Assembly: GCA_048941015.1 (NCBI GenBank)
Contig: JBHLNZ010000076.1
Location: forward strand, 1 to 13,526
Reading direction: 5' to 3'
Source of the DNA: Promethearchaeota archaeon
Lineage (GTDB): Archaea > Asgardarchaeota > Lokiarchaeia > Sigyniarchaeales > SOKP01
Length of the DNA: 13,526 bases
Below, piece by piece: positions 1 through 13,521 of the stretch. The notes beneath the pieces were generated by a model. It did no database searches and was not told where the DNA came from. It worked only from the letters and a program-made list of their open reading frames with translations. The number at the start of each line of letters is the position of its first letter. Positions within the stretch are counted from its first letter, which is position 1. Both the position numbers and the translations under genes were made by a program.

Positions 1-1100
1 TCTCCATCTGGGCTGTATCCACTTCCTGTAACTTTAAAAGTTGAACCATTAGTCCATACATATTGGATACTCATTTGATTTTTAGTTAAAGTGCCAGTTT
101 TATCCGAGCATACTACGCTTACTCGACCTAAACTGTCAACCGAAGCAAGATTTCTTATTATAACGCCATGATGAGCCATAGTTAATACTCCGGTCAATAA
201 TATAATTGTTACTAAGAGTGGAATGTTGATAGGTAGTAGATCCATAGCAGAATTGAGACTTGTAACAATATCAAGTTCACCAGTAGCACCCCATACAATC
301 ATTAAAATCACAAACCAAAATCCAATAACAATTAATCCAAGCCATTTACCAAAATTATTCATTTTTTCTCGAATGGGAATTTCACTCATTCCAGCCTCTT
401 CTAAACCCTGCGAGATTTTTCCAATTTCGGTATCTTTCCCTATTTTTACCGCAATGGCAGTCCCATTCCCAGTAGTTATATAAGTGCCATAAAATACCAT
501 ATTATAACGATCTGATATTGGTATCTCCTCTTTAATAATTGCATTCCCTATTTGCATTTTCTTTACTGGCTCACTCTCTCCTGTCAAAGAGGCTTCGTTT
601 ATTTCAAGATTTGAAGCTTGAACAATTCTCGCATCTGCAGGAATTTTATCACCTTGCGTAAGTACTAATAAATCTCCAACAACTACATTTTTCGTTGGTA
701 CGTCCAATTTTTGTCCGTTTCTTATTACTGTTGTAGTGGGGGCGGTCATTTCTCTTAAGGCATTTAGCTTTTTTGTTGCTCGATATTGTTGAATAACAGC
801 AACTGCACAATTTAATGCAACGATGACTAACGTAAGAACTATAAATGTTAAATTTCCTTGACCTCCAAAAATAGCAGCTAAAAATAAAATTAAAGCTCCG
901 ATTAAATATATTACAATTAGCCAATTAAAAAGAGGAGCTAAGTAAATCTTAATAAATCCTTTAGAAGCTTTAGGAATTTCATTATATCCATAAATTTCTA
1001 AACGTTTATTAGCCTCTTCTCTTGATAAACCAGAGGAAGGATTAGTTTGAAATTTACTAAAGATTGTATCTAACTCTAAATTATAATAAGTCTCAACCAT
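1..1100 (-). CDS. P-type ATPase (P2A-like scaffold, atypical M4 motif PINIP); N-terminal 366 codons only, continues beyond the left edge
   Basis: Not in the ORF track because there is no stop inside the window. Manual translation from ATG at 1100: MVETYYNLELDTIFSKFQTNPSSGLSREEANKRLEIYGYNEIP...GDKIPADARI...NEASLTGESEPV...DTEIGKI...AMDLLPINIPLL (219..233)...VVCSDKTGTLTKNQM (DKTGT at 90..104). It has the A-domain TGES and the phosphorylated Asp (D333). Confidence 0.95.
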   Translation of the reverse strand, partial: MVETYYNLELDTIFSKFQTNPSSGLSREEANKRLEIYGYNEIPKASKGFIKIYLAPLFNWLIVIYLIGALILFLAAIFGGQGNLTFIVLTLVIVALNCAVAVIQQYRATKKLNALREMTAPTTTVIRNGQKLDVPTKNVVVGDLLVLTQGDKIPADARIVQASNLEINEASLTGESEPVKKMQIGNAIIKEEIPISDRYNMVFYGTYITTGNGTAIAVKIGKDTEIGKISQGLEEAGMSEIPIREKMNNFGKWLGLIVIGFWFVILMIVWGATGELDIVTSLNSAMDLLPINIPLLVTIILLTGVLTMAHHGVIIRNLASVDSLGRVSVVCSDKTGTLTKNQMSIQYVWTNGSTFKVTGSGYSPDG

Positions 1101-1258: not shown

Positions 1259-2056
1259 TTATTTCTTTTTTTTCAATTTAGCCAAGATTTTTCCCCAATC
1301 TATATAAACCAATAAGAATAAGATTATAATAGTTGCTGCCCAAATTAAGGAACTTTGTATAAGATCTAGTGTAGTGCTAGGAGGAATAATTCCAGATCTT
1401 GCAGCTTCGAGATTAATACCAAATAGTCCAAAAAGAAAGTTCCCTAGTGATGTATCTGCAAACCAGATAGGCAGAGCACTACAAAGAAAACATAGAACAA
1501 ACTTTCCAATAAAACAGAAAAATAATGCTTTTATGATACTATATTGAGCAAGACCAAGGACAATTAAAAATGCATCATCAGGGAGTGGAGTCGCAGCAAA
1601 TATAAATATTAGGAAGGGCGCCCATCCTTTCTCAACATAACTTTTCATGCGTTGAATACTTTCAGAATCTCCTATAATTCCTTTTGATCCTTTTCCTATT
1701 AACCATGCTGTTGTTTCACCGATACTCGCACCTAATCCCCCAACCAATCCTAATAGTATAGGATTTACTCCTGGTATTATCGCAGATATCACAATTAAAG
1801 CAATAGTATAAGGAACTGGAAAAATTATAGTAAAATTTCCAAATATACTGATTAGAAATACTCCAATATATATTCCCCAATCACCAAATTTAGTATAAAA
1901 CCACATAACAGCATTAGCAAGCCATTGTCCAAAATTGATGTTAAGAAATGCTAAAATTATGAATAAAGCAATGATTACACTGATAAATATCAAGCCACCG
2001 TATTTCATAATGAAACTTTTTTTTATCTCTGTTTCACTTTTTTGTTCTTGGTTCAT
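1259..2056 (-). CDS. DedA/VTT (SNARE-associated Golgi protein; VMP1/TMEM41/YqaA-like) family membrane protein
   Basis: 265 aa and highly hydrophobic. It has two re-entrant-loop type Pro motifs (GNFTIIFPVPY and FIFAATPLPDD), plus GGLGASIGETTAWLIGK and FFCFIGKFVL segments typical of the DedA superfamily core. Confidence 0.8.
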   Translation of the reverse strand: MNQEQKSETEIKKSFIMKYGGLIFISVIIALFIILAFLNINFGQWLANAVMWFYTKFGDWGIYIGVFLISIFGNFTIIFPVPYTIALIVISAIIPGVNPILLGLVGGLGASIGETTAWLIGKGSKGIIGDSESIQRMKSYVEKGWAPFLIFIFAATPLPDDAFLIVLGLAQYSIIKALFFCFIGKFVLCFLCSALPIWFADTSLGNFLFGLFGINLEAARSGIIPPSTTLDLIQSSLIWAATIIILFLLVYIDWGKILAKLKKKK

Positions 2057-2092: not shown

Positions 2093-4936
2093 TCAAAATT
2101 TTATATTTTTAATTCTCGCAAAATATTTTACTATTTCAATCCCAAAAATACCTGGTAAAGCGAATAAGATGCATAAAAGCCAATCTGTTCCACTAAGAAA
2201 CATAAAATTGATTTGAAAATTCAAACCAAATACATCATTTATAAAATAATTAGTCACATACGAGAAACTAATGAATAAAATATGCAATGCTAAAGTAAAT
2301 AAACTAACAACCAATAATGATAATTTAAATTCTTCTCGGATACTTTTAATTACAGATTTGTTTGGTCTCCTAAATGACCAAATGAAATTAGTTTCAGCGA
2401 TATATAGGGTTGTAATAAACATTGTTCTCGCTTTTTGAGCTATTAAATCATTTGGAGTAGAACCTATTGGGATATAACTAATTTCTGGATTTAAATTCCA
2501 AGAATTTAATGGAAATAGTCCTCCCAAAGTTAATTGTAATATTAATACTAAACCTAAACCCATTAAAAATGCCTGAATCAGTAGCAAAATCCATGTATTT
2601 CTATTTAATAATTCTTCTTGATCATGCGGGGAATCTTTCATTATATCTAAAGGATATCTATCTATTACTAAAGCTAAAGATGGAAAAGAGTGGACAATTC
2701 CAAAGATATAAAGATGCTGCCAATCTGAACTGAATAATTCAAAAGCTGGTATGAATTCATAGGTAAAGAAAATTAGAGCTTCCATTATGTTCAAACAAAT
2801 GAAAAAATAAATAATTACACGGATTTTTGCAAAGAGGCCTCTTCCAACTTTTACTCCTTCGACAATTGAGGTGAAATTATCATCAGAAATGACCATGTCT
2901 GCTGTTTCTTTCGCAACATCAGTACCAGTTATTCCCATTGCTATGCCCGCATTTGCCAGCTTAAGCGCTAAAGCATCATTAATTCCATCTCCAGTCATCG
3001 CACAGATTCGATTCTGCTTTTGATAATTTTCAACAATTATTTCTTTATCAGAAGGAGCAACTCTTGCAAATACAGAAACTTTATTAAAATCTTCTAGATT
3101 TAGACTCGAAATCTGATTTCCCTCAATAACTAAATCACCTGGTTTATAAATTCTCATTTGTGCTGCAATTGTTTGAGCAGTTGCGGGGTGATCTCCTGTA
3201 ATCATAACTACTTTTATACCACCAGATTCACACTCTTCAACAGATTCTTTCACTCCTAACCTCGGAGGATCCAGTATTGAAAAAAAGCCTAAAAAGATTA
3301 GATCTTGTTCAACACTCTCTCTTTTAATATTGTTAAAATGATCTAGGTTTTTGTAAGTTATTGCTAAAGTTCTATATCCTTGATTTGCTCGTGTTTGGAT
3401 AAGGTTTAGTATTTCAGCTTTCTTTTTATTATTAAAATTTTGAACTTTCCCATTTATTTCAATTTTGGATGAAATTTCAAGCACTTGTTCTGGAGCCCCT
3501 TTAGTAAATGCATAGATTGCTTCAGAATCCTCATTATGTTTACAAATAGTTGTCATTTTTTTAAGTTCTGAGCTAAATGAGAATTCTTTAACAAATTGAT
3601 ATTTACTTTTAATATCATAAGTAATATAACCAGCTTTCTCAGCCAAGACTAAAAGAGATGCTTCTGTTGGTGAACCTAATGCTTTCCTTATAGCCATTTC
3701 CTTTCTATCTTTTACTCGGACTTTTACATCTTCATAAATCAGTCTTGCATTGTTATTTAATACACTAGAATCAATAAATCTTAGAAACGTGGCATCATGC
3801 TGTAAGGATATTTTCTCACCATTATTCATTATCATCCCTTCCGAATCATATCCAGACCCAATTACAGTGTATTCGACATCATTAATCCAAAATTTTTCTA
3901 CAGTCATTTCATTTTTAGTAATAGTCCCAGTCTTATCAGAGCAAATTACAGAAACCCTTCCGAGAGATTCAATCGCTGATAAATTTTTAATAATAACCCC
4001 ATTTTGAGCCATATTCAGAACACCTGTTATTAGAACGAGCGTGGTTAAGATTGGCAAATTAATTGGCATAATATTCATAGATCTCAAAATAGAGCGTGAT
4101 ACTGCCTGACTAATAAATGCTCCGAAAAATCTGCCTTCAATACCTAAAACTGCTAATTTATAGATTATCAATATTGTTAAATTAACAACAACGATAATTC
4201 CGAGTATATAACCTAGCTTATTGAGTTTTTTTGTAAGTGGTATTTCTTCAATACTTCCCATTTCATTTAATTGATTTGAGATTTTACCAATTTCAGTTTT
4301 AACTCCGATATTCGTAACTAAAGCTTTCGCTCGGCCAGTATATACATAAGTACCCATAAATAGCATATTAGATTGCTTTTGAATTGGTATATCTTCTTTC
4401 TTTATTAGAACACTATTCTTTTCTACAGGTTCACTTTCTCCCGTTAGTGGGGCTTCATCAATGCTTAAATTTACAGCATCAATAATCCTTGCATCAGCAG
4501 GGATTTTATTCCCCTGTTCTAATAATAGAATATCTCCTGAAATCAACTCTCTAGTAGGTATCTCAAACTGAGTTCCGTCCCTTATCACTGTTGCTTTTAA
4601 TGCAGCAATCATTCTCAGTGATTCCAAAGCTTTCTGTGCCCTAAATTGTTGGATAATAACAGTCAATGAATTTATAATAACTACTGTAAATGTTATTACA
4701 GTTGACCCTGGAGAACCTAATATTAAAACGAGGGTTCCAGAAATAATTAAAATAACAATTAAAAAATTAAATATCGGAGCTAAGTATATTTTCCATAAGG
4801 ATTTTTTAATCTTTGGAAGCTCATTATAACCATATTTTTTATATCTAAAATTTAGTTCAGAAATAGATAATCCATGATTAAGATCTGTTTGAAATTCATG
4901 TACCAAGTCTTTTATTGATTTATTATAGTAGTTCAT
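2093..4936 (-). CDS. P-type ATPase (P2A-like scaffold, atypical M4 motif PINLP); substrate uncertain
   Basis: 947 aa with GNKIPADARI, LTGES, CSDKTGTIT (D334), KGAPE, DPPR, MITGDH, FARVAP and MTGDGINDA motifs and about 10 TM segments. M4 reads MNIMPINLP instead of IPEGLP. Confidence 0.95.
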   Translation of the reverse strand: MNYYNKSIKDLVHEFQTDLNHGLSISELNFRYKKYGYNELPKIKKSLWKIYLAPIFNFLIVILIISGTLVLILGSPGSTVITFTVVIINSLTVIIQQFRAQKALESLRMIAALKATVIRDGTQFEIPTRELISGDILLLEQGNKIPADARIIDAVNLSIDEAPLTGESEPVEKNSVLIKKEDIPIQKQSNMLFMGTYVYTGRAKALVTNIGVKTEIGKISNQLNEMGSIEEIPLTKKLNKLGYILGIIVVVNLTILIIYKLAVLGIEGRFFGAFISQAVSRSILRSMNIMPINLPILTTLVLITGVLNMAQNGVIIKNLSAIESLGRVSVICSDKTGTITKNEMTVEKFWINDVEYTVIGSGYDSEGMIMNNGEKISLQHDATFLRFIDSSVLNNNARLIYEDVKVRVKDRKEMAIRKALGSPTEASLLVLAEKAGYITYDIKSKYQFVKEFSFSSELKKMTTICKHNEDSEAIYAFTKGAPEQVLEISSKIEINGKVQNFNNKKKAEILNLIQTRANQGYRTLAITYKNLDHFNNIKRESVEQDLIFLGFFSILDPPRLGVKESVEECESGGIKVVMITGDHPATAQTIAAQMRIYKPGDLVIEGNQISSLNLEDFNKVSVFARVAPSDKEIIVENYQKQNRICAMTGDGINDALALKLANAGIAMGITGTDVAKETADMVISDDNFTSIVEGVKVGRGLFAKIRVIIYFFICLNIMEALIFFTYEFIPAFELFSSDWQHLYIFGIVHSFPSLALVIDRYPLDIMKDSPHDQEELLNRNTWILLLIQAFLMGLGLVLILQLTLGGLFPLNSWNLNPEISYIPIGSTPNDLIAQKARTMFITTLYIAETNFIWSFRRPNKSVIKSIREEFKLSLLVVSLFTLALHILFISFSYVTNYFINDVFGLNFQINFMFLSGTDWLLCILFALPGIFGIEIVKYFARIKNIKF

Positions 4937-5062: not shown

Positions 5063-6025
5063 TTAAATCTCAAGAGATTGAGGATCTCCTAATAGTTCTT
5101 TTAAAAAGTTAAATTTTTTTCTTATCGTAGTACTTGAAAACTTACTACTTTTTTCAATTAGACTCTGAGTAAAAATCTTACGATTATCTAAAGTTTGACC
5201 TATATAATAAATTAATCCTGCCGTAAATGCTTTGTAATTAAAATTTTGAATCTGCTCATAAGGTATTTTATTTAATATTTTATCTACTAATAATAGCATT
5301 TCAATTTTTAATTTACTATACTCATTCTTATCGGAGAGATGATCTTTTATTATTTCATAAGAAATATTATTCAAGTCTTTTTGGAAAACAATTTTTATTT
5401 TATTTTTTATCTCTTCTTCTATTTCTTCAGTTGTTTTGAACTTTTTTAGCATTTTCTCAGTCCTTTTGACTTTGAGCATCGCATTATTCAACATTTTTTT
5501 ATTAATTTTATGTCCTAATTCTCTTGCTGCTTTTATAAATTGCTCAATACGAATATTTGTAGTGTCTTTTATCTCCATCCAGACAATTGCCAGAAAAATT
5601 ATAACCATATTCTGGTAGGTGTGTCTATGATATTTATTATATTTAAGATAACGTTCTTTAATTTCTTGATATTTAACGTTATCGATATTTAAACCAATTC
5701 TATAGCTCTTTAATAATTCTATCGTTTTTTTCTGTTCAGAAAAGCTGCTCTGATAATCTTTAAACCATTTATCTAGAGTTTTTATCTTCTCATATTTTTG
5801 TTTAATTTTAGGATCTTGAATAGCTTTAGAATCTCCAAGTTTTATTCTTCTTTCATAATCTATTTGAGAATCTGATAAAAAATCTGATGCAGAACTCTCT
5901 TCAAATGCGATATTATCTTCAAAAATTAATCCACAATCTTGACAAACAAGAAAGCCAGAATCTTGCTTTATGTTAGAATGAGAACAAGTTGAAATATCCT
6001 TTTTTTCTTTATTCTTATTACTCAA
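5063..6025 (-). CDS. Divergent transcription initiation factor IIB (TFB)-like protein
   Basis: TTG start. N-terminal Zn ribbon C14-x-H16...C28-x2-C31-G (CQDCGLIFE). The C-terminal segment AFTAGLIYYIG...TQSLIEKSSKFSSTTIRKKFNFLKE resembles the second cyclin repeat/HTH of TFB. The middle is strongly diverged. Confidence 0.7.
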   Translation of the reverse strand: MSNKNKEKKDISTCSHSNIKQDSGFLVCQDCGLIFEDNIAFEESSASDFLSDSQIDYERRIKLGDSKAIQDPKIKQKYEKIKTLDKWFKDYQSSFSEQKKTIELLKSYRIGLNIDNVKYQEIKERYLKYNKYHRHTYQNMVIIFLAIVWMEIKDTTNIRIEQFIKAARELGHKINKKMLNNAMLKVKRTEKMLKKFKTTEEIEEEIKNKIKIVFQKDLNNISYEIIKDHLSDKNEYSKLKIEMLLLVDKILNKIPYEQIQNFNYKAFTAGLIYYIGQTLDNRKIFTQSLIEKSSKFSSTTIRKKFNFLKELLGDPQSLEI

Positions 6026-6779: not shown

Positions 6780-7706
6780 TTAGAATAATTTACTTTTTAT
6801 TTGTTTTGCCCTGCTTCTTAATGTAACTTCTGTTATTTTTGCTACATCAGCAACGAGTGATTGAGTTTTACGAGAACCATGGTCCTTAGCGGAAATATAA
6901 ATACAAGCTGCAGCTAAACCTTTGGGATCTTTTCCAGTACGCTTTAAGCCATTTTCAGAAGCTTTTCTAAGCATATCGATGGCACACTTTTGAATGTTCA
7001 TTGGAAGGTTTAATTCATTACCAAATCTAAATACTAAACTTTCGGCTGTAATAGGTTGATAACGTAATCCTAATTCAGGTAAAACTTCCCTGATAATCAT
7101 TGCTAAACTTTTATGTACTGTTCTTCTTGGGGTTAATGAAGCCTCACATACTTCATCTAGTAAGCGAGGAAAGTCATGTACTCTAATTGCAGCATATAGG
7201 GAACCTGCGATAAATCCATTAATAGATCTACCCATAGTTAACTTTTTCTTAGCTACTATACTATAAACTTTCCAAGCAGTTTCAGAAATATATTCTGGGA
7301 TATTTAACTTAGATGTTAGCATCTTTAATTTAGGTTTGGCTTCCCAGAAATTTCTCTCAATGCTTGAAATAAGTGAATTTTGAATTTTTGATAATCTTGA
7401 AAATAATGCTTGTTCTTTTGGACCTATTGATTTCCCTTTAGAGTCAGTTTTAGTACTTGGTAGCATAGTACGAGGGCCAAAATCTCTCCATCTTGGTTCA
7501 GTTCTCCTCCTACTTTGGATTTCTTCTACCGTATATGCTCGTCTCTCATTACCTACATATGTTCTTTCGAAAATTACTCCGCAATTCAAACACACTTTAT
7601 TACCATCACGCTCTTCAATACATGGATCTTCGCAACACTCACTCTGGGGCAAATTTTCTTCAACATTTTTATTCCGTAGCAATAGATCGCGATAGTTATT
7701 ATTCAT
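6780..7706 (-). CDS. tfb: Transcription initiation factor IIB (TFB)
   Basis: 308 aa. Zn ribbon (CCEDPC...VCLNCG), B-reader-like ERRAY..EE..RRRT, first cyclin repeat (LTMGRSINGFIAGSLYAAIR) and second repeat (GKDPKGLAAACIYI...TQSLVADVAKITEVTLRSR). Confidence 0.95.
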   Translation of the reverse strand: MNNNYRDLLLRNKNVEENLPQSECCEDPCIEERDGNKVCLNCGVIFERTYVGNERRAYTVEEIQSRRRTEPRWRDFGPRTMLPSTKTDSKGKSIGPKEQALFSRLSKIQNSLISSIERNFWEAKPKLKMLTSKLNIPEYISETAWKVYSIVAKKKLTMGRSINGFIAGSLYAAIRVHDFPRLLDEVCEASLTPRRTVHKSLAMIIREVLPELGLRYQPITAESLVFRFGNELNLPMNIQKCAIDMLRKASENGLKRTGKDPKGLAAACIYISAKDHGSRKTQSLVADVAKITEVTLRSRAKQIKSKLF

Positions 7707-7975: not shown

Positions 7976-8488
7976 TTGGAATTTTATGATGTTATAAAAA
8001 AAAGGAGAAGCTATCGCTTCTTTAAATCGGAAATGCCTCAAGAGGAAAAAGTCAACAGAATTTTAGAAGCGGCACGATTAGCGCCTACATGGGCTAATAA
8101 ACAAGGAATGCATTACATAGTAGTAAAGGATAAAGAAGTAGTGAAAATGGTTTGGGAAGCAATTGGTCAAAAGCAGAAGTTTGCTGATTGTCCTATATTT
8201 ATAATAGGTGCAATTGCTGAATCAGGCTCTGGAGTTAATCATGATGAAAAATATTATCCAGTTGATTTTGGAATATGTTTTGAACATTTAATATTAGCTG
8301 CAACTGCTGAAGGATTAGGTACATGTTGGATAGGATGGTTTGATGAGCAAAAAATTAAAAAAATTCTTTCGATTCCTGCGAAATATCGAGTCTTAGGGAT
8401 TACTCCTATAGGATATCCTCTCAAGCAGAAAGGAGAAGTAGAGGATCGAAAGCCTCTAAATGAGTTTGTACATTATAATAAATTCTAA
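7976..8488 (+). CDS. Nitroreductase family flavoprotein
   Basis: TTG start, 170 aa. FMN-binding motifs IKKRRSYRFF and ARLAPTWANKQ, plus LAATAEGLGTCWIG and a C-terminal IGYP...RKPL. Confidence 0.92.
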   Translation: MEFYDVIKKRRSYRFFKSEMPQEEKVNRILEAARLAPTWANKQGMHYIVVKDKEVVKMVWEAIGQKQKFADCPIFIIGAIAESGSGVNHDEKYYPVDFGICFEHLILAATAEGLGTCWIGWFDEQKIKKILSIPAKYRVLGITPIGYPLKQKGEVEDRKPLNEFVHYNKF

Positions 8489-8558
8489 TATCTTTTCTAT
8501 AAATCGTTTTTAAAGAATTAGAAGTAAATATAAAATAATTCCATATTTTATTCTATTT

Positions 8559-10289
8559 ATGAAGATCATTCGTATTAATTTAAGTTCAAGTTCAACAAAG
8601 ACTGAAGAGATAAAACAAGATTCAAAGTATTTTTTATTAGGAGCACGAGGTTTGAGTTCTCAAATCGTTTATGATGAAGTTCCACCAGACTGTAATCCTT
8701 TAGATAGTGAAAATAAACTTATTTTAGCAAATGGCTTATTAGCAGGAAGTTCTTTTCCTAATTCGGCTCGTACTTCTGTAGGAAGTAAAAGTCCATTAAC
8801 AAATGGTATAAAAGAAGCAAATGTAGGAGGAAGACCAGCAATGATGCTGGCAAGACATGGGATACGAGCGTTAATATTAGAGGGGAAATCCTTAGATCTA
8901 AAAATTATTATTATTAATCAAGATGAAATTCAAATATTATCTGGAGAAGAATATAAAGGATTAGGGAACTACAGCTTGCATGAAAAACTGAAAGCAAAAT
9001 ATGGAGATAGGATTGGAATTTATTCAATTGGTCCAGCAGGAGAGTATTTAATGAAATCTGCTACTGTTGCTGCTAATGATTTAGAAGGATTTCCCAGTAG
9101 ACATGCTGCTAGAGGGGGATTAGGAAGTGTAATGGGCTCTAAAGGAGTAAAAGCTATCATTTTAATTCCCCCGAAAGATTCAAAAATTAAAATGCATGAT
9201 ATAAAAAAATTTAAAGAAGTTGTTGGTCCATTTGCAAAAACTTTAGCTCAAACAAAACAGACCTTTTCTATTTTTGGGACTCCTTTGATGATGAAAGCAA
9301 TGAGCAGTTATGGTGGAATACCTACTAAAAATTTTGGAATGGGTTCATTTGATAAAATCGAAAACATTTCAGGAGAAAAACTTCATGAAGTTGTAGTTGA
9401 ACGAGGGGGAAGGAAACGATTAGCTTGCTGTCCAACTTGTGTAATCAGATGTTCAAATTATATTGTTGATGAGAATGGGAATCATATCACTTCGAGCTTA
9501 GAATATGAAACAATGGCACTTAATGGATCAAATCTTTTAATTGACGATATTGATAGTCTTGCTTATATAGATCATTATTGTGATGATGTTGGTATCGATA
9601 CTATTGAATTTGGAGGTACCGCAGGTGTCGCAATGGACTGTAGGGAGATTAAATGGGGAGATGCTCAAGAAGTCATTCGGATATTAGATAAAGAGATAAG
9701 AAATAACACTGAAGTTGGAAAATTGTATGGGAATGGTGTAAAAGTTATCGGTGAGAAACTCAGAGCAAAAAGAGTACCACAAGTTAAAGGACAAGGAATT
9801 TCTGCTTATGATTGTAGAGTTTTTAAAGCAATGGGCGCTACATATGCTACCTCACCAATGGGAGCGGATCATACAGCTGGAGCAGCTATTGCTGGAAGAG
9901 TTCCTAGTCAACATAAAGACTATGGTGAACTTACTGAAAATGATAAAAAATTAGATTTGTCTTTTGAACTTCAAGTATATACCGCAGTTATGGATTCTAT
10001 GGGGTGTTGTTATTTTATAGGTCCTAACTATGAGAACATGGAGATTGTCGCAAAAGCAGTAAATGCAATGTATAATTTAGATTTAACACGTGAAGATATC
10101 ATTAATATCGGAAAAATGATCCTAAGAACCGAAATAGAGTTTAATAAAAGGGCAGGTATTACTCAAGATGTAAATGATGTTCCAGAATTTTTCAGAAAAG
10201 AACCCTCATCTCCAAAAGATTTGACTTTTACCTTTGAAAAACAAGAATTAAAAGAGTTTTGGAATAGATTAAATAATCATACTTTCTGA
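8559..10289 (+). CDS. aor: Aldehyde:ferredoxin oxidoreductase family protein (W/Mo-pterin, 4Fe-4S)
   Basis: 576 aa with SKSPLTNGIKEANVGG, SIGPAGE, AARGGLGSVMGSKGVKAI, the 4Fe-4S motif C-x2-C-x3-C (CPTCVIRC), EYET, CDDVGIDTI, GADH and the fourth cluster Cys in DSMGCC. Confidence 0.95.
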   Translation: MKIIRINLSSSSTKTEEIKQDSKYFLLGARGLSSQIVYDEVPPDCNPLDSENKLILANGLLAGSSFPNSARTSVGSKSPLTNGIKEANVGGRPAMMLARHGIRALILEGKSLDLKIIIINQDEIQILSGEEYKGLGNYSLHEKLKAKYGDRIGIYSIGPAGEYLMKSATVAANDLEGFPSRHAARGGLGSVMGSKGVKAIILIPPKDSKIKMHDIKKFKEVVGPFAKTLAQTKQTFSIFGTPLMMKAMSSYGGIPTKNFGMGSFDKIENISGEKLHEVVVERGGRKRLACCPTCVIRCSNYIVDENGNHITSSLEYETMALNGSNLLIDDIDSLAYIDHYCDDVGIDTIEFGGTAGVAMDCREIKWGDAQEVIRILDKEIRNNTEVGKLYGNGVKVIGEKLRAKRVPQVKGQGISAYDCRVFKAMGATYATSPMGADHTAGAAIAGRVPSQHKDYGELTENDKKLDLSFELQVYTAVMDSMGCCYFIGPNYENMEIVAKAVNAMYNLDLTREDIINIGKMILRTEIEFNKRAGITQDVNDVPEFFRKEPSSPKDLTFTFEKQELKEFWNRLNNHTF

Positions 10290-10299
10290 TTTGAAAAGT

Positions 10300-10320
10300 T
10301 TATCTTATTTTTTTTAATTC
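10300..10320 (+). terminator. Putative oligo-T terminator after aor
   Basis: T-rich tract (TTATCTTATTTTTTTTAATTC) 10-30 nt after the aor stop, in the gap facing the convergent marR gene. Confidence 0.4.
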
Positions 10321-10404
10321 TATTTAATTCTAGCTAAAGTAATTTCACATTAGTACAACTAGATTAAAGAGAATGATTACAGGAACTCATAGTTAAATTG
10401 TCCT

Positions 10405-10905
10405 TTATTTTATATCAGGTTTCAATGAATCAAATAATTTTTGGAGTAATCCTAAAAGCATTTTAATATCAAATTCATCAAGACTTTGACAACAATTATT
10501 TAAGGAATTATCCAACTTATTTGATAATTTTTTAGCCTCAATCCCTTTTTTTGTTAGTTTAATCAAATTTTTTCTTCGATCATCTTGACTCTCTATTCTT
10601 TTAATTAACTTATTCTTTTCCATCGTATCAATAATTCCAGTAATAGTTGATTTAGAACAAGAACATCCTTTTGCTAATTCAATTTGACTTAATTCATCCC
10701 TTTCCCAAAGTTGACGTAAAATTAAATATTGAGCAGGTGTCATATTCATTTGTTGAATAGAATTACGTTGAATTCTTTCAACCCGCTTATTAATCTTGTA
10801 TATTAATCTAAAAGCTTTATTAAAACTCTCAGGATCAGAACCATTTCCACAACATGTAGATGATTTCTCATTACTTATGATGTCTTGATTTGTTTTATTG
10901 CTCAT
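10405..10905 (-). CDS. MarR family transcriptional regulator, cysteine-rich
   Basis: 166 aa winged-HTH signature: MTPAQYLILRQLW...SQIELAK...KSTITGIIDTMEKNKLIKR...DRRKNLIKLTKKG. It carries six Cys in three pairs. Confidence 0.93.
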   Translation of the reverse strand: MSNKTNQDIISNEKSSTCCGNGSDPESFNKAFRLIYKINKRVERIQRNSIQQMNMTPAQYLILRQLWERDELSQIELAKGCSCSKSTITGIIDTMEKNKLIKRIESQDDRRKNLIKLTKKGIEAKKLSNKLDNSLNNCCQSLDEFDIKMLLGLLQKLFDSLKPDIK

Positions 10906-10928
10906 AATTATTAATAGAGCTATAAAAA

Positions 10929-10990
10929 ATTTAAAGGTTTGGATCCGAATGGTTCGGATCAGAACCTTTAAATAGTTCGGATCCTTACTA
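10929..10990. promoter_or_regulatory. Divergent marR/arsM promoter-operator: 45-bp inverted repeat plus three copies of palindrome GGTTCGGATCCGAACC
   Basis: Arms 10929..10949 and 10953..10973 are reverse complements at 19/21 positions. Boxes lie at 10936..10951 (13/16 to consensus), 10951..10966 (15/16) and 10974..10989 (12/16). TTTAAA TATA-like elements sit at both ends of the inverted repeat. Confidence 0.8.
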
Positions 10991-11022
10991 TCTATTATAA
11001 TTAAAAATTATAAGTGATTAAA

Positions 11023-11847
11023 ATGAGAAGTGAGGAAAAAATAAAAGAAATTGTAAGAAAACAATATTCTAAAGTTGCCTTATCAAATAATCAAAATGAA
11101 TTTTCTGGTTGCGGATGTTCTAGTGATAAAAATGTTCTTATTAGCAAGGTTATTGGTTATAGGGATGACGATTTTAATGCCGTTCCAGAAGGGTCAAATC
11201 TGGGTTTAGGTTGTGGTAATCCAATCGCTCTTGCATCTCTAAAGGAAGGTGAGACTGTTATTGATCTTGGTTCTGGAGCAGGTTTTGATGCATTTTTGGC
11301 ATCAAAAAAAGTGGGAAAAACTGGTAAAGTAATTGGTGTCGATATGACTCCTGCTATGATTTCAAAGGCAAGAGAGAATGCAAATCAAGGAGATTTTGAA
11401 AATGTCGAATTTAGACTAGGGGAAATTGAGCATTTACCGGTTTCTGATGGTATAGCAGATATTATAATCTCGAATTGTGTTATTAATCTAGTACCTAATA
11501 AAAGAGAAGTATTTAAAGATGCCTTCAGGGTATTAAAGCCAGGCGGTAGGTTAATGATTTCTGATATTGTTGTTACAAAAAAACTTCCCGAATTTATACA
11601 GGAATCTATAGAAGCATACACTGGATGCATTTCAGGGGCAATTTTAAAAGAAGACTACATAAAACTGATGGAAGAGAGTGGTTTTCAAGAGGTAAAGATA
11701 CTAGGTGAAGTAAATTATCCCATAGATCTTTTTATGTATAGCAAAGAGATTAATGAAATTATAGAAAAGAACAAAATATCTCTCAAAGAATTGAAGGAGA
11801 TTGCAAGAACAATAGTTAGTGTAAAAATTAGTGCTTATAAACCCTAA
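11023..11847 (+). CDS. arsM: Arsenite S-adenosylmethionine methyltransferase
   Basis: Motifs GCGC, NLGLGCGNP, SAM-binding VIDLGSGAGFD, VIGVDMTPAM, IISNCVINL, RVLKPGGRL and YTGCISGA. The catalytic Cys set is present (C33/35, C67, C155, C205 in ORF-track numbering). The in-frame ATG at 11023 is preferred over GTG at 11014. Confidence 0.93.
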   Translation: MRSEEKIKEIVRKQYSKVALSNNQNEFSGCGCSSDKNVLISKVIGYRDDDFNAVPEGSNLGLGCGNPIALASLKEGETVIDLGSGAGFDAFLASKKVGKTGKVIGVDMTPAMISKARENANQGDFENVEFRLGEIEHLPVSDGIADIIISNCVINLVPNKREVFKDAFRVLKPGGRLMISDIVVTKKLPEFIQESIEAYTGCISGAILKEDYIKLMEESGFQEVKILGEVNYPIDLFMYSKEINEIIEKNKISLKELKEIARTIVSVKISAYKP

Positions 11848-11917
11848 AATATTTAATATATTTTTTTATAATTATTTTTTATTTTTAAGGACAAAAATAG
11901 AGAATGAAGTTTTTAAA

Positions 11918-12850
11918 GTGATAGGCGTTAATGAAAAGAGTCAAAATAATAAGAAAAGTAGAGAAAGAGATAAATTTAATGATATTACTTTTAATAAATC
12001 TATATTAGATATTATAAATGCACGTTTTTCAATCAGAGCATATCTCGATAAACCACTGAATCTAGATCTGAAAAAAAGCATAAGGAATATCCTAACACAT
12101 CCTAATATAAATAGTCCATTCAGAGAAAAAGTGGCAAATATTAGATTTAAACTGATAAATTTTTCAGAATTAGATCAAGACATAAATTTAAAAACTAAGA
12201 CAATTGGAGGGATATACGGAGCACATGATTATATTGTTGGAGCTATGGAGCAATCCGAATATGATTTTGAACATTATGGATATGTTTTTGAAACAATTAT
12301 TTTAAAAATGACTGAACTAAGATTAGGGACATGTTGGTTAGGAGGCTTTTTTAATCGAAAACTTTTTGCAGATAAAATTCAAAAGCGTCCAAATGAGATT
12401 ATTCCCGCAATAACACCTGTTGGAACACCTGATTATGTTAGATTAAAAGCTGGATTTGGAATGAAAACAAATTTTGATCGTATTAGACTTCCAGTGTCGC
12501 AACTTTTCTTTGAAGGAGATTTTACAAATCCAATCAATTTTATAAGTAAAGATCCTTATTCCGTATTACTTGAAATGGTCCGAATTAGTCCTTCTGCTAG
12601 TAACTTACAACCATGGAGGATAGTCAAAGATAAGAAGGAGAATATTTTTCATTTTTATACATTATCAACTAGAGATAGAGTTGGGCTTATTTATAATAAT
12701 TTTCGGCGAATTGACATAGGAATCGCTGTATGTCATTTTGATCTTGCATCGAAATTTCTAAATCTAAAAGGAAACTGGGAATTTAAGCAACAAATTATTC
12801 CATCAATAAAATATCTTAAATATATCATAAGTTGGAGTGAAAAGAATTAA
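11918..12850 (+). CDS. Nitroreductase family protein (two-lobed type)
   Basis: IINARFSIRAY, LKMTELRLGTCWLGG and ITPVG, followed by a second lobe with VRISPSASNLQPWR and RIDIGIAVCHF. The ORF is open from 11831, but 11848..11890 looks like T-rich intergenic sequence, so GTG at 11918 is the likelier start. The start remains uncertain. Confidence 0.85.
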   Translation: MIGVNEKSQNNKKSRERDKFNDITFNKSILDIINARFSIRAYLDKPLNLDLKKSIRNILTHPNINSPFREKVANIRFKLINFSELDQDINLKTKTIGGIYGAHDYIVGAMEQSEYDFEHYGYVFETIILKMTELRLGTCWLGGFFNRKLFADKIQKRPNEIIPAITPVGTPDYVRLKAGFGMKTNFDRIRLPVSQLFFEGDFTNPINFISKDPYSVLLEMVRISPSASNLQPWRIVKDKKENIFHFYTLSTRDRVGLIYNNFRRIDIGIAVCHFDLASKFLNLKGNWEFKQQIIPSIKYLKYIISWSEKN

Positions 12851-12963
12851 AAGAAGTTTAACCTATTTTCATGGATTTGTGTAGAATAAAATTTTTGTAG
12901 ATTTAATTAATATTTTAAGAAAATATAACTAAAAACCCTTTTCAATTTAAAACAAATTCAATT

Positions 12964-13521
12964 TTAAACATATCGCAACAAACCTTTTCTCATCATATAA
13001 TATTCTATTACAAGAATTAGAATAAATCCAATACTAATAAGAAAAATAGGAGTTAAACTAGTCACTGGTCCGAATAAAATCCCTAATTCACTAAATCTAC
13101 AAAATATACTCAATATTCCATATCCAACGCCTCCTAAAACGGCAATAATCTTCTCTTTCTTAAAAATAGAAATAGAAAAATGCCAACATGCAGTAAGACA
13201 AAATGTAGATATCAATATTAAAATAAATAATATTGCTATTGATAAATTAGGACTCAAAAGTAGCCCAAAGACAATAAAAATTATAAAAGAAACATATAAT
13301 ACGATTGAGATTAATTTTAAATTTTCCTTAAAATAATTAATTTCTAATTTTATAAATATACTCAATAAAATCCAGGGGATTTCAATCAATAAGGCAATAA
13401 GAGACACTGTCCATGCATCTAATATAAAAAGATCCAGAAATATTGAAGAAAATAGACCTATTAAAATAAGACATGCGCCAGCAAGTCTTAAAAGCCCTAT
13501 TTTTTTTATTTCTATCCTCAT
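12964..13521 (-). CDS. Hypothetical multi-pass membrane protein (about 6 TM)
   Basis: 185 aa, almost entirely hydrophobic helices, with no recognised motif. The start lies near the window edge. Confidence 0.75.
   Translation of the reverse strand: MRIEIKKIGLLRLAGACLILIGLFSSIFLDLFILDAWTVSLIALLIEIPWILLSIFIKLEINYFKENLKLISIVLYVSFIIFIVFGLLLSPNLSIAILFILILISTFCLTACWHFSISIFKKEKIIAVLGGVGYGILSIFCRFSELGILFGPVTSLTPIFLISIGFILILVIEYYMMRKGLLRYV

What the first reader, a model, noticed from the sequence alone, without database searches (positions are those of the whole stretch)
4052..4078. M4 motif N-I-M-P-I-N-L on a P2A scaffold: resembles P4 flippase N-L-I-P-I-S-L
Seen: MNIMPINLP, with P291 exactly 43 residues before the phosphorylated D334. 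This is the spacing of SERCA P308 to D351, so Ile292 occupies the position of Ca2+-binding E309. Established: M4 is PEGL in P2 pumps, PISL in P4 flippases (the Ile is the hydrophobic gate, with a functionally important Asn three residues before the Pro) and PPAL in P5. The upstream Asn is also present here. However, the A domain keeps TGES (P4 has DGET), and KGAPE/DPPR are P2-like. Inference: a mosaic that is either an intermediate on the path from cation pump to flippase or a convergent new subfamily.
Basis: partly seen in the sequence, partly recalled or inferred. Interest (0 to 1): 0.88.

Follow-up and report, generated by a model that had tools for sequence, protein, structure and literature searches.

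The report
Asgard P2-type pump with rebuilt ion site
The motif is real and marks an apparently undescribed group of Asgard-archaeal ATP-driven membrane pumps that look like calcium pumps but have a rebuilt binding pocket, so they probably carry a different ion, and nothing beyond one shared isoleucine ties them to eukaryotic lipid flippases.

Summary
Observation confirmed. MNIMPINLP lies at window 4052-4078 (minus strand) in an intact 947-aa P-type ATPase, with P291 43 residues before D334.

The motif is conserved. About 120 close Asgard homologues and about 35 further 50%-identity clusters read P-[IFVWL]-N-[LIF]-P. The changes in this clade are coordinated:
- SERCA E309 becomes hydrophobic, and G310 becomes Asn.
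- N796 becomes Phe/Tyr, T799 becomes Val, and D800 becomes His (69/70).
- N768, E771 and E908 are kept (66-70/70).

So Ca2+ site II is dismantled and a site-I-like pocket with an added His remains.

Sequence profiles, predicted fold and tree all place the clade beside prokaryotic P2A pumps. P4 and P5B sit on very long separate branches. The flippase reading is weak:
- The P3A proton pump AHA2 also has Pro-Ile in M4.
- The upstream Asn is not conserved (30/70).
- The P4 hallmarks DGET, M5 Lys and M6 Asn are absent.
- However, an AU test does not formally reject a grouping with P4 (p 0.08).

My best reading is a single-site cation pump (H+ or a transition metal), substrate unknown.

The gene sits in a conserved tandem pair with a paralogue. 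The DedA/VTT gene between them is present in only some lineages. This scan has flagged the same family on other genomes, and one earlier follow-up favoured a lipid substrate.

The parts
2093..4936 (-). Paralogue A: an intact 947-aa P2-type P-type ATPase of the 'P-phi-N' Asgard clade (P0001)
   Evidence: Pfam finds Cation_ATPase_N, E1-E2_ATPase, Cation_ATPase, Hydrolase and Cation_ATPase_C. All NCBIfam equivalog cut-offs are missed.
4052..4078 (-). M4 motif M-N-I-M-P-I-N-L-P. I292 sits at the SERCA E309 position and N293 at G310.
   Evidence: The model shows the helix unwound at 290-293.
2780..2791 (-). M5 N716-I-M-E719, equivalent to SERCA N768 and E771. Both are retained.
   Evidence: N is present in 66/70 and E in 70/70 clade members.
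2669..2716 (-). M6 HLYIFGIVHSFPSLAL. F745 sits at N796, V748 at T799 and H749 (2690-2692) at D800.
   Evidence: His is present in 69/70 clade members; PEGL relatives have Asp or Glu in 43/45.
2393..2395 (-). M8 E848, equivalent to SERCA E908. Retained.
   Evidence: Glu is present in 68/70.
3923..3937 (-). DKTGT phosphorylation motif (D334)
   Evidence: Invariant in A1.
4433..4444 (-). TGES A-domain dephosphorylation motif
   Evidence: G166 and E167 are invariant; T165 and S168 are at least 90% conserved.
3..1100 (-). Paralogue B: a second ATPase of the same clade, cut by the contig end (first 366 aa). Its M4 reads LLPINIPLL.
   Evidence: Full-length orthologues B9 and B10 share the M5 N..E, M6 His and M8 Glu.
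1259..2056 (-). DedA/VTT-domain membrane protein (265 aa) between the two ATPases. The gaps are 36 and 158 bp and all three genes are co-oriented.
   Evidence: PF09335, E 1.5e-6, below the gathering score. The same A-VTT-B order occurs in G057 and G008. In G019 and G030 the VTT orthologue lies on a different contig from the ATPase pair. No orthologue was found in G071, G040 or G049 (only 37%-identical matches in G071 and G040, none in G049).

Best explanation
The motif is the unwound M4 substrate-site segment of a member of a distinct, mostly Asgard-archaeal clade of P2-type P-type ATPases.

Shown:
- The catalytic machinery is P2-like and complete (DKTGT, TGES, KGAPE, DPPR, TGDGxNDA).
- Every side-chain ligand of Ca2+ site II has been replaced: E309 by Ile/Phe/Val/Trp/Leu, N796 by Phe/Tyr, D800 by His.
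- T799, a site I ligand, has become Val.
- The other site I ligands N768, E771 and E908 are kept almost invariantly.
- Two new polar residues, Asn293 in M4 and His749 in M6, are fixed.
- Acidic residues of the M1/M2 entry region are neutralised (Gln97 and Gln101 for Glu; Pro54 for Gln).

Inferred: the protein still runs the normal E1-E2 phosphoenzyme cycle. It binds one small cation in a site-I-like pocket made of Glu719, Glu848, Asn716, His749 and Asn293, with Ile292 acting as a hydrophobic lid in place of the gating Glu.

The His, the two carboxylates and the Met/Cys enrichment of the pocket fit either a divalent transition metal (Mn, Fe, Zn, Co or Ni) or a proton relay. Ca2+ is unlikely.

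The gene forms an old tandem pair with a paralogue that has the same pocket. It is a derived sister lineage of prokaryotic P2A pumps, not a demonstrable relative of P4 flippases.
For: Motif and register.

Clade-wide residue counts (70 clade members against 45 PEGL relatives):
- Position 292 is hydrophobic in 70/70.
- N293 67/70, N716 66/70, E719 70/70, H749 69/70, E848 68/70.

M1/M2 changes.

Pocket composition over 62 core positions:
- Met+Cys+His 6.1 against 2.4 per protein.
- Asp+Glu 2.0 against 3.7.

P2 affinity:
- NCBIfam PMR1-type 441 bits and SERCA-type 428 bits, against P5 242 and P4 106.
- Best PDB sequence hits are LMCA1 at E 3e-123, then SPCA1 and SERCA.
- AF2 model pLDDT is 83. The top 50 Foldseek hits are all P2A/P2C pumps, with TM-score up to 0.82.

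Tree:
- The clade has SH-aLRT 99.
- It is grouped with PEGL P2A and a P3A-like pump at SH-aLRT 91.
- P4 and P5B lie outside on stems of 5.0 and 2.9 substitutions per site.

The earliest-branching clade members still read LAVAAIP-[WFV]-NFP, which is a PEGL-like context. This points to derivation from a P2A-like ancestor.

Tandem A-B pair.

The genome also carries an ordinary PEGLP Ca-type pump and a P3A-like pump, so this clade is an additional function and not a replacement.
Against: No substrate was tested, and the ion assignment rests only on residue chemistry.
- The pocket is more hydrophobic and more aromatic than in cation pumps.
- The clade's profile scores P4 flippases 20-29 bits better than the PEGL profile does. 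The excess is concentrated in M5-M6, with 2-5 bits in M3-M4.
- P-I-N-L differs from the flippase P-I-S-L only by Asn for Ser, both polar and uncharged.
- The Met enrichment could partly reflect the AT-rich genome (GC 29.8%).
- In three genomes a DedA/VTT gene sits between the two pumps.
- An earlier follow-up of this scan on another genome favoured a lipid substrate.
Confidence: 0.55

Rival explanations
1. Convergent flippase-like transporter. The clade moves a lipid or another amphipathic or large substrate, for example an archaeal ether lipid or a polyprenyl-phosphate carrier. Transport would run along an M2-M4-M6 groove, with Ile292 as a hydrophobic gate and Asn293 contacting the head group as Ser does in P-I-S-L. 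It would have arisen independently of eukaryotic P4 ATPases.
For: - M4 P-I-N-L against P4 P-I-S-L in the same register.
- All site II ligands are lost and the M1/M2 acidic entry residues are neutralised.
- The core is more hydrophobic and aromatic.
- The clade profile scores P4 proteins 20-29 bits above the PEGL profile, with the excess concentrated in M5-M6 and 2-5 bits in M3-M4.
- A DedA/VTT gene lies between the paralogues in G000, G057 and G008.
Against: - Two buried carboxylates (E719 70/70, E848 68/70) and a fixed His are kept. P4 has Leu at the E719 position and no acidic residue aligned with E848.
- The P4 M5 Lys and M6 Asn are absent.
- Pro followed by a hydrophobic residue also occurs in P3A proton pumps.
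- The VTT linkage is not conserved. The gene is unlinked in G019 and G030 and has no orthologue in G071, G040 or G049. It is absent from L009 and L010 and from 15 other loci.
- VTT proteins are also reported as SERCA modulators and Ca2+ release channels (titles and abstracts of PMC9900977, PMC10060355 and PMC13262637). The neighbour therefore does not discriminate between the readings.
Confidence: 0.2
2. Stem lineage of eukaryotic P4 flippases. The clade would be the prokaryotic sister or ancestor from which P4 ATPases evolved in the archaeal ancestor of eukaryotes.
For: - The clade is Asgard-centred.
- The M4 Ile is shared with P4.
- The AU test does not reject clade+P4 (log-likelihood difference 8.98, p 0.0805).
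- The profile shows a modest excess score towards P4.
Against: - There are no shared derived residues: 0 of 3 informative columns.
- TGES is present rather than DGET, and there is no P4 M5 Lys or M6 Asn.
- No P4 N- or C-terminal Pfam domains were found. TIGR01652 scores 106 bits against a cut-off of 431.
- The full tree groups the clade with P2A/P3A at SH-aLRT 91.
- The P4 stem is about 5 substitutions per site, so the non-rejection mostly reflects lack of signal.
- The P4-like upstream Asn is a late acquisition within the clade.
Confidence: 0.04
3. Organic-cation pump. The aromatic-plus-acidic pocket would bind a polyamine or other organic cation, by analogy with P5B ATPases.
For: Conserved Glu719 and Glu848 are surrounded by an excess of aromatic residues (FWY 9.6 against 6.3 per 62 core positions). 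Small-ion site II is lost.
Against: - There is no P5 motif (PPALP). TIGR01657 scores 242 bits against a cut-off of 618.
- In the M3-M4 and M5-M6 regions the clade profile scores P5B worse than the PEGL profile does.
- Gly/Ala are replaced by bulkier residues, which suggests a smaller cavity and not a larger one.
Confidence: 0.1
4. Ordinary Ca2+ (or Mn2+) P2A pump, as database names say ('Ca2+-transporting ATPase').
For: Source annotations, overall best similarity to LMCA1, SPCA and SERCA, and an earlier survey that lists a putative Ca2+-ATPase in all Asgard proteomes (PMC7997004).
Against: - E309, N796 and D800 equivalents are all replaced. These are the residues that single-site Ca pumps such as LMCA1, SPCA and PMCA keep; that comparison is from my own knowledge.
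- All Ca-ATPase equivalog cut-offs are missed by a wide margin.
- The genome has a separate canonical PEGLP pump.
Confidence: 0.03

Closest known systems
Prokaryotic P2A Ca2+-ATPases (Listeria LMCA1) and eukaryotic SPCA1/SERCA
   Same: Domain architecture, the catalytic motifs TGES, DKTGT, KGAPE, DPPR and TGDGxNDA, the 43-residue Pro-to-Asp spacing, M5 Asn/Glu and M8 Glu, and a 10-helix fold. These are the best sequence hits (E 3e-123) and the best fold hits (TM-score 0.78-0.82).
   Different: The M4 Glu is Ile and the following Gly is Asn. In M6, Asn is Phe, Thr is Val and Asp is His. The M1/M2 acidic residues are neutralised. Known single-site Ca pumps keep site II and lose site I; this clade does the reverse. 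It misses every NCBIfam equivalog cut-off.
P4 lipid flippases (ATP8A1 type)
   Same: M4 Pro-Ile-(polar)-Leu in the same register, a hydrophobic transport core, and no acidic residue at the E309 position.
   Different: P4 has DGET where this protein has TGES, a Lys in M5 where the clade has Leu/Ile, and Leu where the clade keeps Glu719. P4 has Asn in M6 where the clade has Phe, and Thr where the clade has His. The P4-specific N- and C-terminal domains are absent here. TIGR01652 scores 106 bits against a cut-off of 431. P4 sits on a separate long branch in the tree.
P3A plasma-membrane H+-ATPases (AHA2, PMA1)
   Same: A hydrophobic residue directly after the M4 Pro (AHA2 GIPIAMP; own-genome homologue AIPVALP), consistent with a single small-cation or proton site.
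   Different: P3A uses an M6 Asp as proton acceptor where this clade has His. TIGR01647 scores 322 bits against a cut-off of 615. P3A lacks the SERCA-type M5 Glu/M8 Glu pair: the own-genome P3A-like protein has Arg and Gly/His at those columns.
P1B-4 type heavy-metal ATPases (from my own knowledge: an M6 His-Glu-Gly-x-Thr metal site)
   Same: His plus Glu, and Met/Cys, as candidate ligands in the membrane site. This is a resemblance in ligand chemistry only.
   Different: There is no CPx/SPC motif in M4, the topology and N-terminus differ, and the own-genome P1B pumps lie far away as outgroup in the tree.

Membership tests
P-type ATPase superfamily (HAD-IC) | DKTGT phosphorylation site, TGES-type A-domain loop and GDGxND hinge | tested here: met
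   TIGR01494 scores 257 bits against a cut-off of 62.
P2 type (P2A-like scaffold) | Cation_ATPase_N and Cation_ATPase_C domains, KGAPE and DPPR motifs, and best profile and fold similarity to P2 pumps | tested here: met
P2A Ca2+-ATPase (SERCA/PMR1/LMCA1) | M4 P-E-G-L Glu (SERCA E309) | tested here: not met
   Ile292 is in that position. The position is hydrophobic in 70/70 clade members, against Glu in 45/45 PEGL relatives.
P2A Ca2+-ATPase (SERCA/PMR1/LMCA1) | M6 Asn796, Thr799 and Asp800 ligands | tested here: not met
   They are Phe745, Val748 and His749.
P2A Ca2+-ATPase (SERCA/PMR1/LMCA1) | Score above the NCBIfam equivalog cut-off | tested here: not met
   TIGR01522 scores 441 against a cut-off of 798, and TIGR01116 scores 428 against 703.
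P2A Ca2+-ATPase (SERCA/PMR1/LMCA1) | Phylogenetic placement inside the prokaryotic P2A clade | tested here: inconclusive
   The clade forms its own branch (SH-aLRT 99) in a polytomy with PEGL P2A groups and a P3A-like pump. It is not nested inside them. No eukaryotic P2A-D or P3 references were available.
P4 lipid flippase | A-domain DGET motif | tested here: not met
   TGES is at residue 165. T165 and S168 are at least 90% conserved.
P4 lipid flippase | M4 P-I-S-L with Asn residues three and four positions before the Pro | tested here: inconclusive
   The motif here is P-I-N-L, with 3 of 4 residues identical and Asn in place of Ser. The Asn three positions before the Pro is present in this protein but in only 30/70 clade members, and is absent from the basal members.
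P4 lipid flippase | M5 Lys (ATP8A2 K873 position) and the M6 Asn | tested here: not met
   The aligned residues are Leu715 and Phe745. The clade keeps Glu719 where P4 has Leu.
P4 lipid flippase | P4-specific N- and C-terminal domains (PF16209, PF16212) and the TIGR01652 cut-off | tested here: not met
   Neither domain appears among the Pfam hits, while both are present on the P4 references. TIGR01652 scores 106 bits against a cut-off of 431.
P4 lipid flippase | CDC50 beta subunit (P4A only) | tested here: inconclusive
   PF03381 was not found in the own genome (95% complete). The control genomes contain no CDC50 either, so the search is unvalidated.
P4 lipid flippase | Groups with P4 in a phylogeny | tested here: inconclusive
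   It does not group with P4 in the free trees. Clade+P4 is nevertheless not rejected by the AU test (p 0.0805).
P3A H+-ATPase | M6 Asp proton acceptor and the TIGR01647 cut-off | tested here: not met
   His749 is at that position. TIGR01647 scores 322 bits against a cut-off of 615.
P5 ATPase | M4 P-P-(E/A)-L-P and the TIGR01657 cut-off | tested here: not met
   M4 is P-I-N-L-P. TIGR01657 scores 242 bits against a cut-off of 618.
Any transporter class | Identity of the transported substrate | not testable with these tools
   This needs biochemistry.

The most novel reading that the evidence does not exclude
An Asgard-specific branch of P2 pumps has been converted, independently of or ancestrally to eukaryotic P4/P5 ATPases, into a transporter of a non-ionic or amphipathic substrate such as an archaeal membrane lipid or lipid carrier. 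Ile292 would act as a hydrophobic gate. This would make it the first prokaryotic flippase-like P-type ATPase and a living model for how cation pumps became flippases.
Probability: 0.15. Interest if true: 0.9.

Novelty: new variant of a known kind. Interest (0 to 1): 0.58.

Why it matters
P-type ATPase subfamilies are defined by their membrane binding sites. Every characterised single-site Ca-type P2 pump keeps site II. This clade does the opposite and adds an invariant His, so its substrate cannot be read from any characterised relative.

It is widespread and highly conserved in Asgard archaea. In the window's own family 9 of 9 genomes carry it, usually as a tandem pair. Of 81 sampled Asgard genomes, 45 have a match at E <= 1e-160, though the hits checked in one lineage (G001 directly, G013 by similar score) are ordinary PEGLP pumps. 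Databases label these proteins Ca2+-ATPases.

Identifying the substrate would correct the inferred ion and lipid physiology of the closest archaeal relatives of eukaryotes. If the substrate were not an inorganic ion, the origin of flippases could be tested experimentally.

Tried and rejected
1. The AU test of clade+P4 on the full 71-row alignment never finished in three 300-s runs. It was done on a 32-row subset instead.
2. A control AU test (PEGL+P4) stalled and was abandoned. It is therefore unknown whether p 0.08 is any better than for another arbitrary partner.
3. Neighbour analysis of 15 loci from other Asgard families found no recurrent Pfam family next to the pump. There was no VTT gene, metal regulator or chaperone, so context gives no substrate clue outside the window's own family.
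4. The DedA/VTT neighbour was rejected as evidence for lipid transport, because the linkage is lineage-specific and VTT proteins are also linked to SERCA and Ca2+ handling.
5. The CDC50 search was empty, but the controls were empty too.
6. Literature searches for this clade, for Asgard P-type ATPases related to flippases, for FUPA families and for the motif strings found no description. Subscription journals are not covered.
Only ATP8A1-like and ATP13A2-like animal sequences came back, so P4B/C, P5A, and eukaryotic P2A-D and P3 are missing from the trees.
8. Model coordinates are not exposed, so no pocket-geometry or groove analysis was possible.
9. One script call returned no answer and was repeated.
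Full report
**1. Observation**

The window (13,526 bp, GC 29.8%) is the start of contig C17 of a 3.59-Mb, 95%-complete genome. ORF 2093..4936 on the minus strand encodes an intact 947-aa protein, P0001.

- MNIMPINLP is residues 287-295, which is window 4052-4078.
- P291 lies 43 residues before D334 of DKTGT.
- TGES (165), KGAPE (479), DPPR (556) and TGDGINDA (648) are all present.
- An ungapped phmmer alignment to the Listeria Ca2+-ATPase LMCA1 puts P-I-N-L on P-E-A-L.
- In a 115-sequence alignment (A1), all 45 PEGL-type relatives have Glu in the column of I292.
- The AlphaFold model (pLDDT 83, pTM 0.72) shows M4 unwound at residues 290-293.

The observation and its register are correct.

**2. 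What the protein belongs to**

Pfam finds the P2/P3-type architecture: Cation_ATPase_N, E1-E2_ATPase, Cation_ATPase, Hydrolase and Cation_ATPase_C.

NCBIfam ranks the subfamily models as follows, all below their equivalog cut-offs:

| Model | Bits |
|---|---|
| PMR1-type | 441 |
| SERCA-type | 428 |
| P2D | 406 |
| PMCA | 387 |
| P2C | 339 |
| P3A | 322 |
| P3B | 303 |
| P5 | 242 |
| P4 | 106 |

The best solved relatives by sequence are LMCA1 (E 3e-123), SPCA1 and SERCA. The 50 best Foldseek hits to the model are all P2A or P2C pumps, with TM-score up to 0.82, and no P4 or P5 structure appears among them.

**3. The motif defines a clade**

- All 120 closest database homologues (69-91% identity) read x-x-x-x-x-P-[IF]-N-L-P. 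Those that carry names are labelled Lokiarchaeota, Promethearchaeota, Hodarchaeota, Hermodarchaeota or Thorarchaeota, apart from one record labelled Nanopelagicaceae bacterium.
- An exhaustive search of 50%-identity representatives shows a sharp break. Nearly all full-length hits above about 510 bits read P-[IVFLW]-N-[LIF]-[PV], with rare S, M or T at the Asn position. These are about 35 clusters, down to 36% identity. Below the break almost everything is PEGLP.
- Named representatives are Helarchaeota and Promethearchaeota, plus one Korarchaeota.
- In 81 sampled genomes of the phylum, 45 have a hit at E <= 1e-160. The window's own family scores 9 of 9.
- One lineage (f4) reads P-I-T-I-P. The hit checked in the small-genome lineage f2 (G001) is an ordinary PEGLP pump, so that survey slightly over-counts.

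**4. The whole pocket is rebuilt in a coordinated way**

Counts are for 70 clade members against 45 PEGL relatives.

| Helix | SERCA residue | Clade |
|---|---|---|
| M4 | E309 | I/F/V/W/L in 70/70 |
| M4 | G310 | Asn in 67/70 |
| M5 | N768 | kept, 66/70 |
| M5 | E771 | kept, 70/70 |
| M6 | N796 | Phe/Tyr |
| M6 | T799 | Val |
| M6 | D800 | His in 69/70 |
| M8 | E908 | kept, 68/70 |

- In M1 and M2 the clade has Y-L-A-P-I-F-N and Q-Q-(Y/F)-R-A-Q, where PEGL pumps have F-x-x-Q-F and Q-E-Y-K-A-E.
- Over 62 core positions the clade carries 6.1 Met+Cys+His against 2.4, 2.0 acidic residues against 3.7, 9.6 aromatic against 6.3, and 5.0 Gly/Ala against 11.4.
- All side-chain ligands of Ca2+ site II are therefore gone. 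Four of the five site I positions stay polar, and the shared Asp has become His.
- From my own knowledge, known single-site Ca pumps (LMCA1, SPCA, PMCA) do the reverse.
It is Ala in the earliest-branching members, which still read LAVAAIP-[WFV]-NFP. It is a late, lineage-specific change.

**5. Phylogeny**

No curated references were available. I used own-genome paralogues as references:
- a canonical PEGLP pump on C49;
- a P3A-like pump on C23, whose best PDB hit is AHA2 at E 8.5e-183;
- three P1B pumps.

P4 and P5B sequences were fetched by baiting the database with short typed motifs.

A 71-row IQ-TREE (LG+C20 PMSF, quick search) gives the following:
- the clade is monophyletic (SH-aLRT 99);
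- paralogues A and B fall in separate subclades;
- the clade sits in a 60-row group (SH-aLRT 91) with the PEGL P2A pumps and the P3A-like pump;
- P4 and P5B lie outside on stems of 5.0 and 2.9 substitutions per site.

In a 32-row subset the backbone collapses to a polytomy. An AU test of clade+P4 held together gives a log-likelihood difference of 8.98 and p 0.0805, which is not a rejection.

At columns where the clade and PEGL consensus differ and P4 is invariant, P4 agrees with PEGL 3:0.

One result points the other way. A profile of the clade scores the four P4 proteins 20-29 bits higher than a PEGL profile does, while it scores P5B, the P3A-like pump and two of the three P1B pumps lower. 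The excess is concentrated in M5-M6 (8-11 bits in three of the four P4 proteins), with 2-5 bits in M3-M4. Inspection shows it comes from generic hydrophobic matches. The P4 M5 Lys and M6 Asn are not shared, and P4 has Leu where the clade keeps Glu719.

**6. The flippase inference**

The premise that Pro-Ile in M4 is a P4 signature is incomplete. The P3A proton pump AHA2 reads GGIPIAMP and the own-genome P3A-like pump reads AAIPVALP in the same register. A hydrophobic residue at the E309 position is therefore also a feature of a small-cation pump.

DGET and the P4-specific terminal domains are absent. No CDC50 was found, but that search had no positive control.

P4 ancestry is unsupported, though not formally excluded. 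Convergence on a hydrophobic gate remains possible.

**7. Context**

The window also holds the first 366 aa of a second pump of the same clade (3..1100, minus strand, M4 LLPINIPLL), cut by the contig end.

Full-length orthologues show the same pocket: PIN, N..E, His and Glu.

The A-then-B tandem is conserved in Lokiarchaeial contigs with the same upstream synteny and in 8 of the 9 other sampled genomes of the family. The ninth (G065) shows only a B-type copy at a contig end.

Between A and B lies a 265-aa DedA/VTT-domain gene. Its distribution is patchy:
- The same A-VTT-B order occurs in G057 (same genus) and G008 (another genus), with VTT orthologues at E about 1e-132.
- In G019 and G030 the VTT orthologue lies on a different contig from the ATPase pair.
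- G071, G040 and G049 have no orthologue; G071 and G040 have only 37%-identical matches and G049 has none.
- In the other A-B pairs examined the two pump genes are directly adjacent, with no VTT gene between them.
- Fifteen loci from other families share no recurrent neighbour.

VTT proteins are reported as lipid scramblases, and also as SERCA modulators and Ca2+ release channels (titles and abstracts only). The neighbour does not decide between ion and lipid.

**8. Mechanism**

Shown: a complete P2-type catalytic apparatus, and a conserved, rebuilt membrane pocket.

Inferred: a normal E1-E2 cycle that moves one small cation. The cation would be bound by Glu719, Glu848, Asn716, His749 and Asn293 under a hydrophobic lid formed by Ile292 and Phe745.

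Two nearly invariant buried carboxylates plus a fixed His are hard to explain for a lipid path. They fit a divalent transition metal or a proton relay. I put this reading at about 0.55 and Ca2+ at 0.03.

The rivals are a convergent flippase-like or large-substrate transporter (0.2), an organic-cation pump (0.1) and a P4 stem lineage (0.04).

**9. Novelty**

I found no paper describing this clade. A transporter survey simply lists a putative Ca2+-ATPase in Asgard proteomes (PMC7997004).

This scan has flagged the same family on several other genomes. One earlier follow-up there judged a lipid substrate most plausible. My evidence leans towards a cation but does not exclude the lipid reading.

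I class it as a new variant of a known kind: a P2-type pump with an unprecedented 'site-I-plus-His' pocket.

Noticed in passing
window 3-1100 (-): A second P-type ATPase of the same clade (paralogue B, M4 LLPINIPLL, TGES at 173, D333), truncated by the contig end. Full-length orthologues are 953-981 aa and always lie directly downstream of A in the family.
   Followed up: yes
window 1259-2056 (-): A 265-aa DedA/VTT-domain protein (PF09335, E 1.5e-6, below the gathering score) lies between the two pumps. The same order occurs in G057 and G008. In G019 and G030 the orthologue lies on a different contig from the ATPase pair. G071, G040 and G049 have no orthologue (at most a 37%-identical match).
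   Followed up: partly
window 5063-6025 (-) and 6780-7706 (-): A 320-aa protein with only a weak TFIIB-type Zn-ribbon match sits directly upstream of pump A and is co-oriented with it. It is conserved in that position in L009 and L010 (320 and 287 aa). A canonical TFIIB (308 aa) lies nearby.
   Followed up: no
G000:C23 (locus L004:1276-3720) and G000:C49: The genome also encodes a P3A-type pump very similar to the plant H+-ATPase AHA2 (E 8.5e-183, M4 AIPVALP) and a canonical PEGLP P2A pump, plus three P1B pumps (CPC, CPH, CPC).
   Followed up: partly
L018 and L019 (G026, G003; family f4): This lineage of the clade reads P-I-T-I-P in M4, with Thr in place of the otherwise near-invariant Asn. 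Rare representatives read P-I-M-I-P or P-V-S-I-P.
   Followed up: no
L013 (G025:C86): A tandem of two B-like clade members (both xMSVMPINIPLL) separated by 470 bp, in another Asgard family. This suggests independent or older duplications.
   Followed up: no
alignment of 71 P-type ATPases (/scratch): The clade's HMM scores P4 flippases 20-29 bits higher than the PEGL HMM does. The excess is concentrated in M5-M6, with 2-5 bits in M3-M4. P5B and the P3A-like pump score lower with it. It appears to come from hydrophobic composition but is not fully explained.
   Followed up: partly
window 7976-13521: Other genes in the window are two nitroreductase-family genes, an aldehyde:ferredoxin oxidoreductase, and a MarR regulator divergent from a SAM methyltransferase. 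The AFOR, nitroreductase and TFIIB genes are syntenic with other Lokiarchaeial contigs.
   Followed up: no
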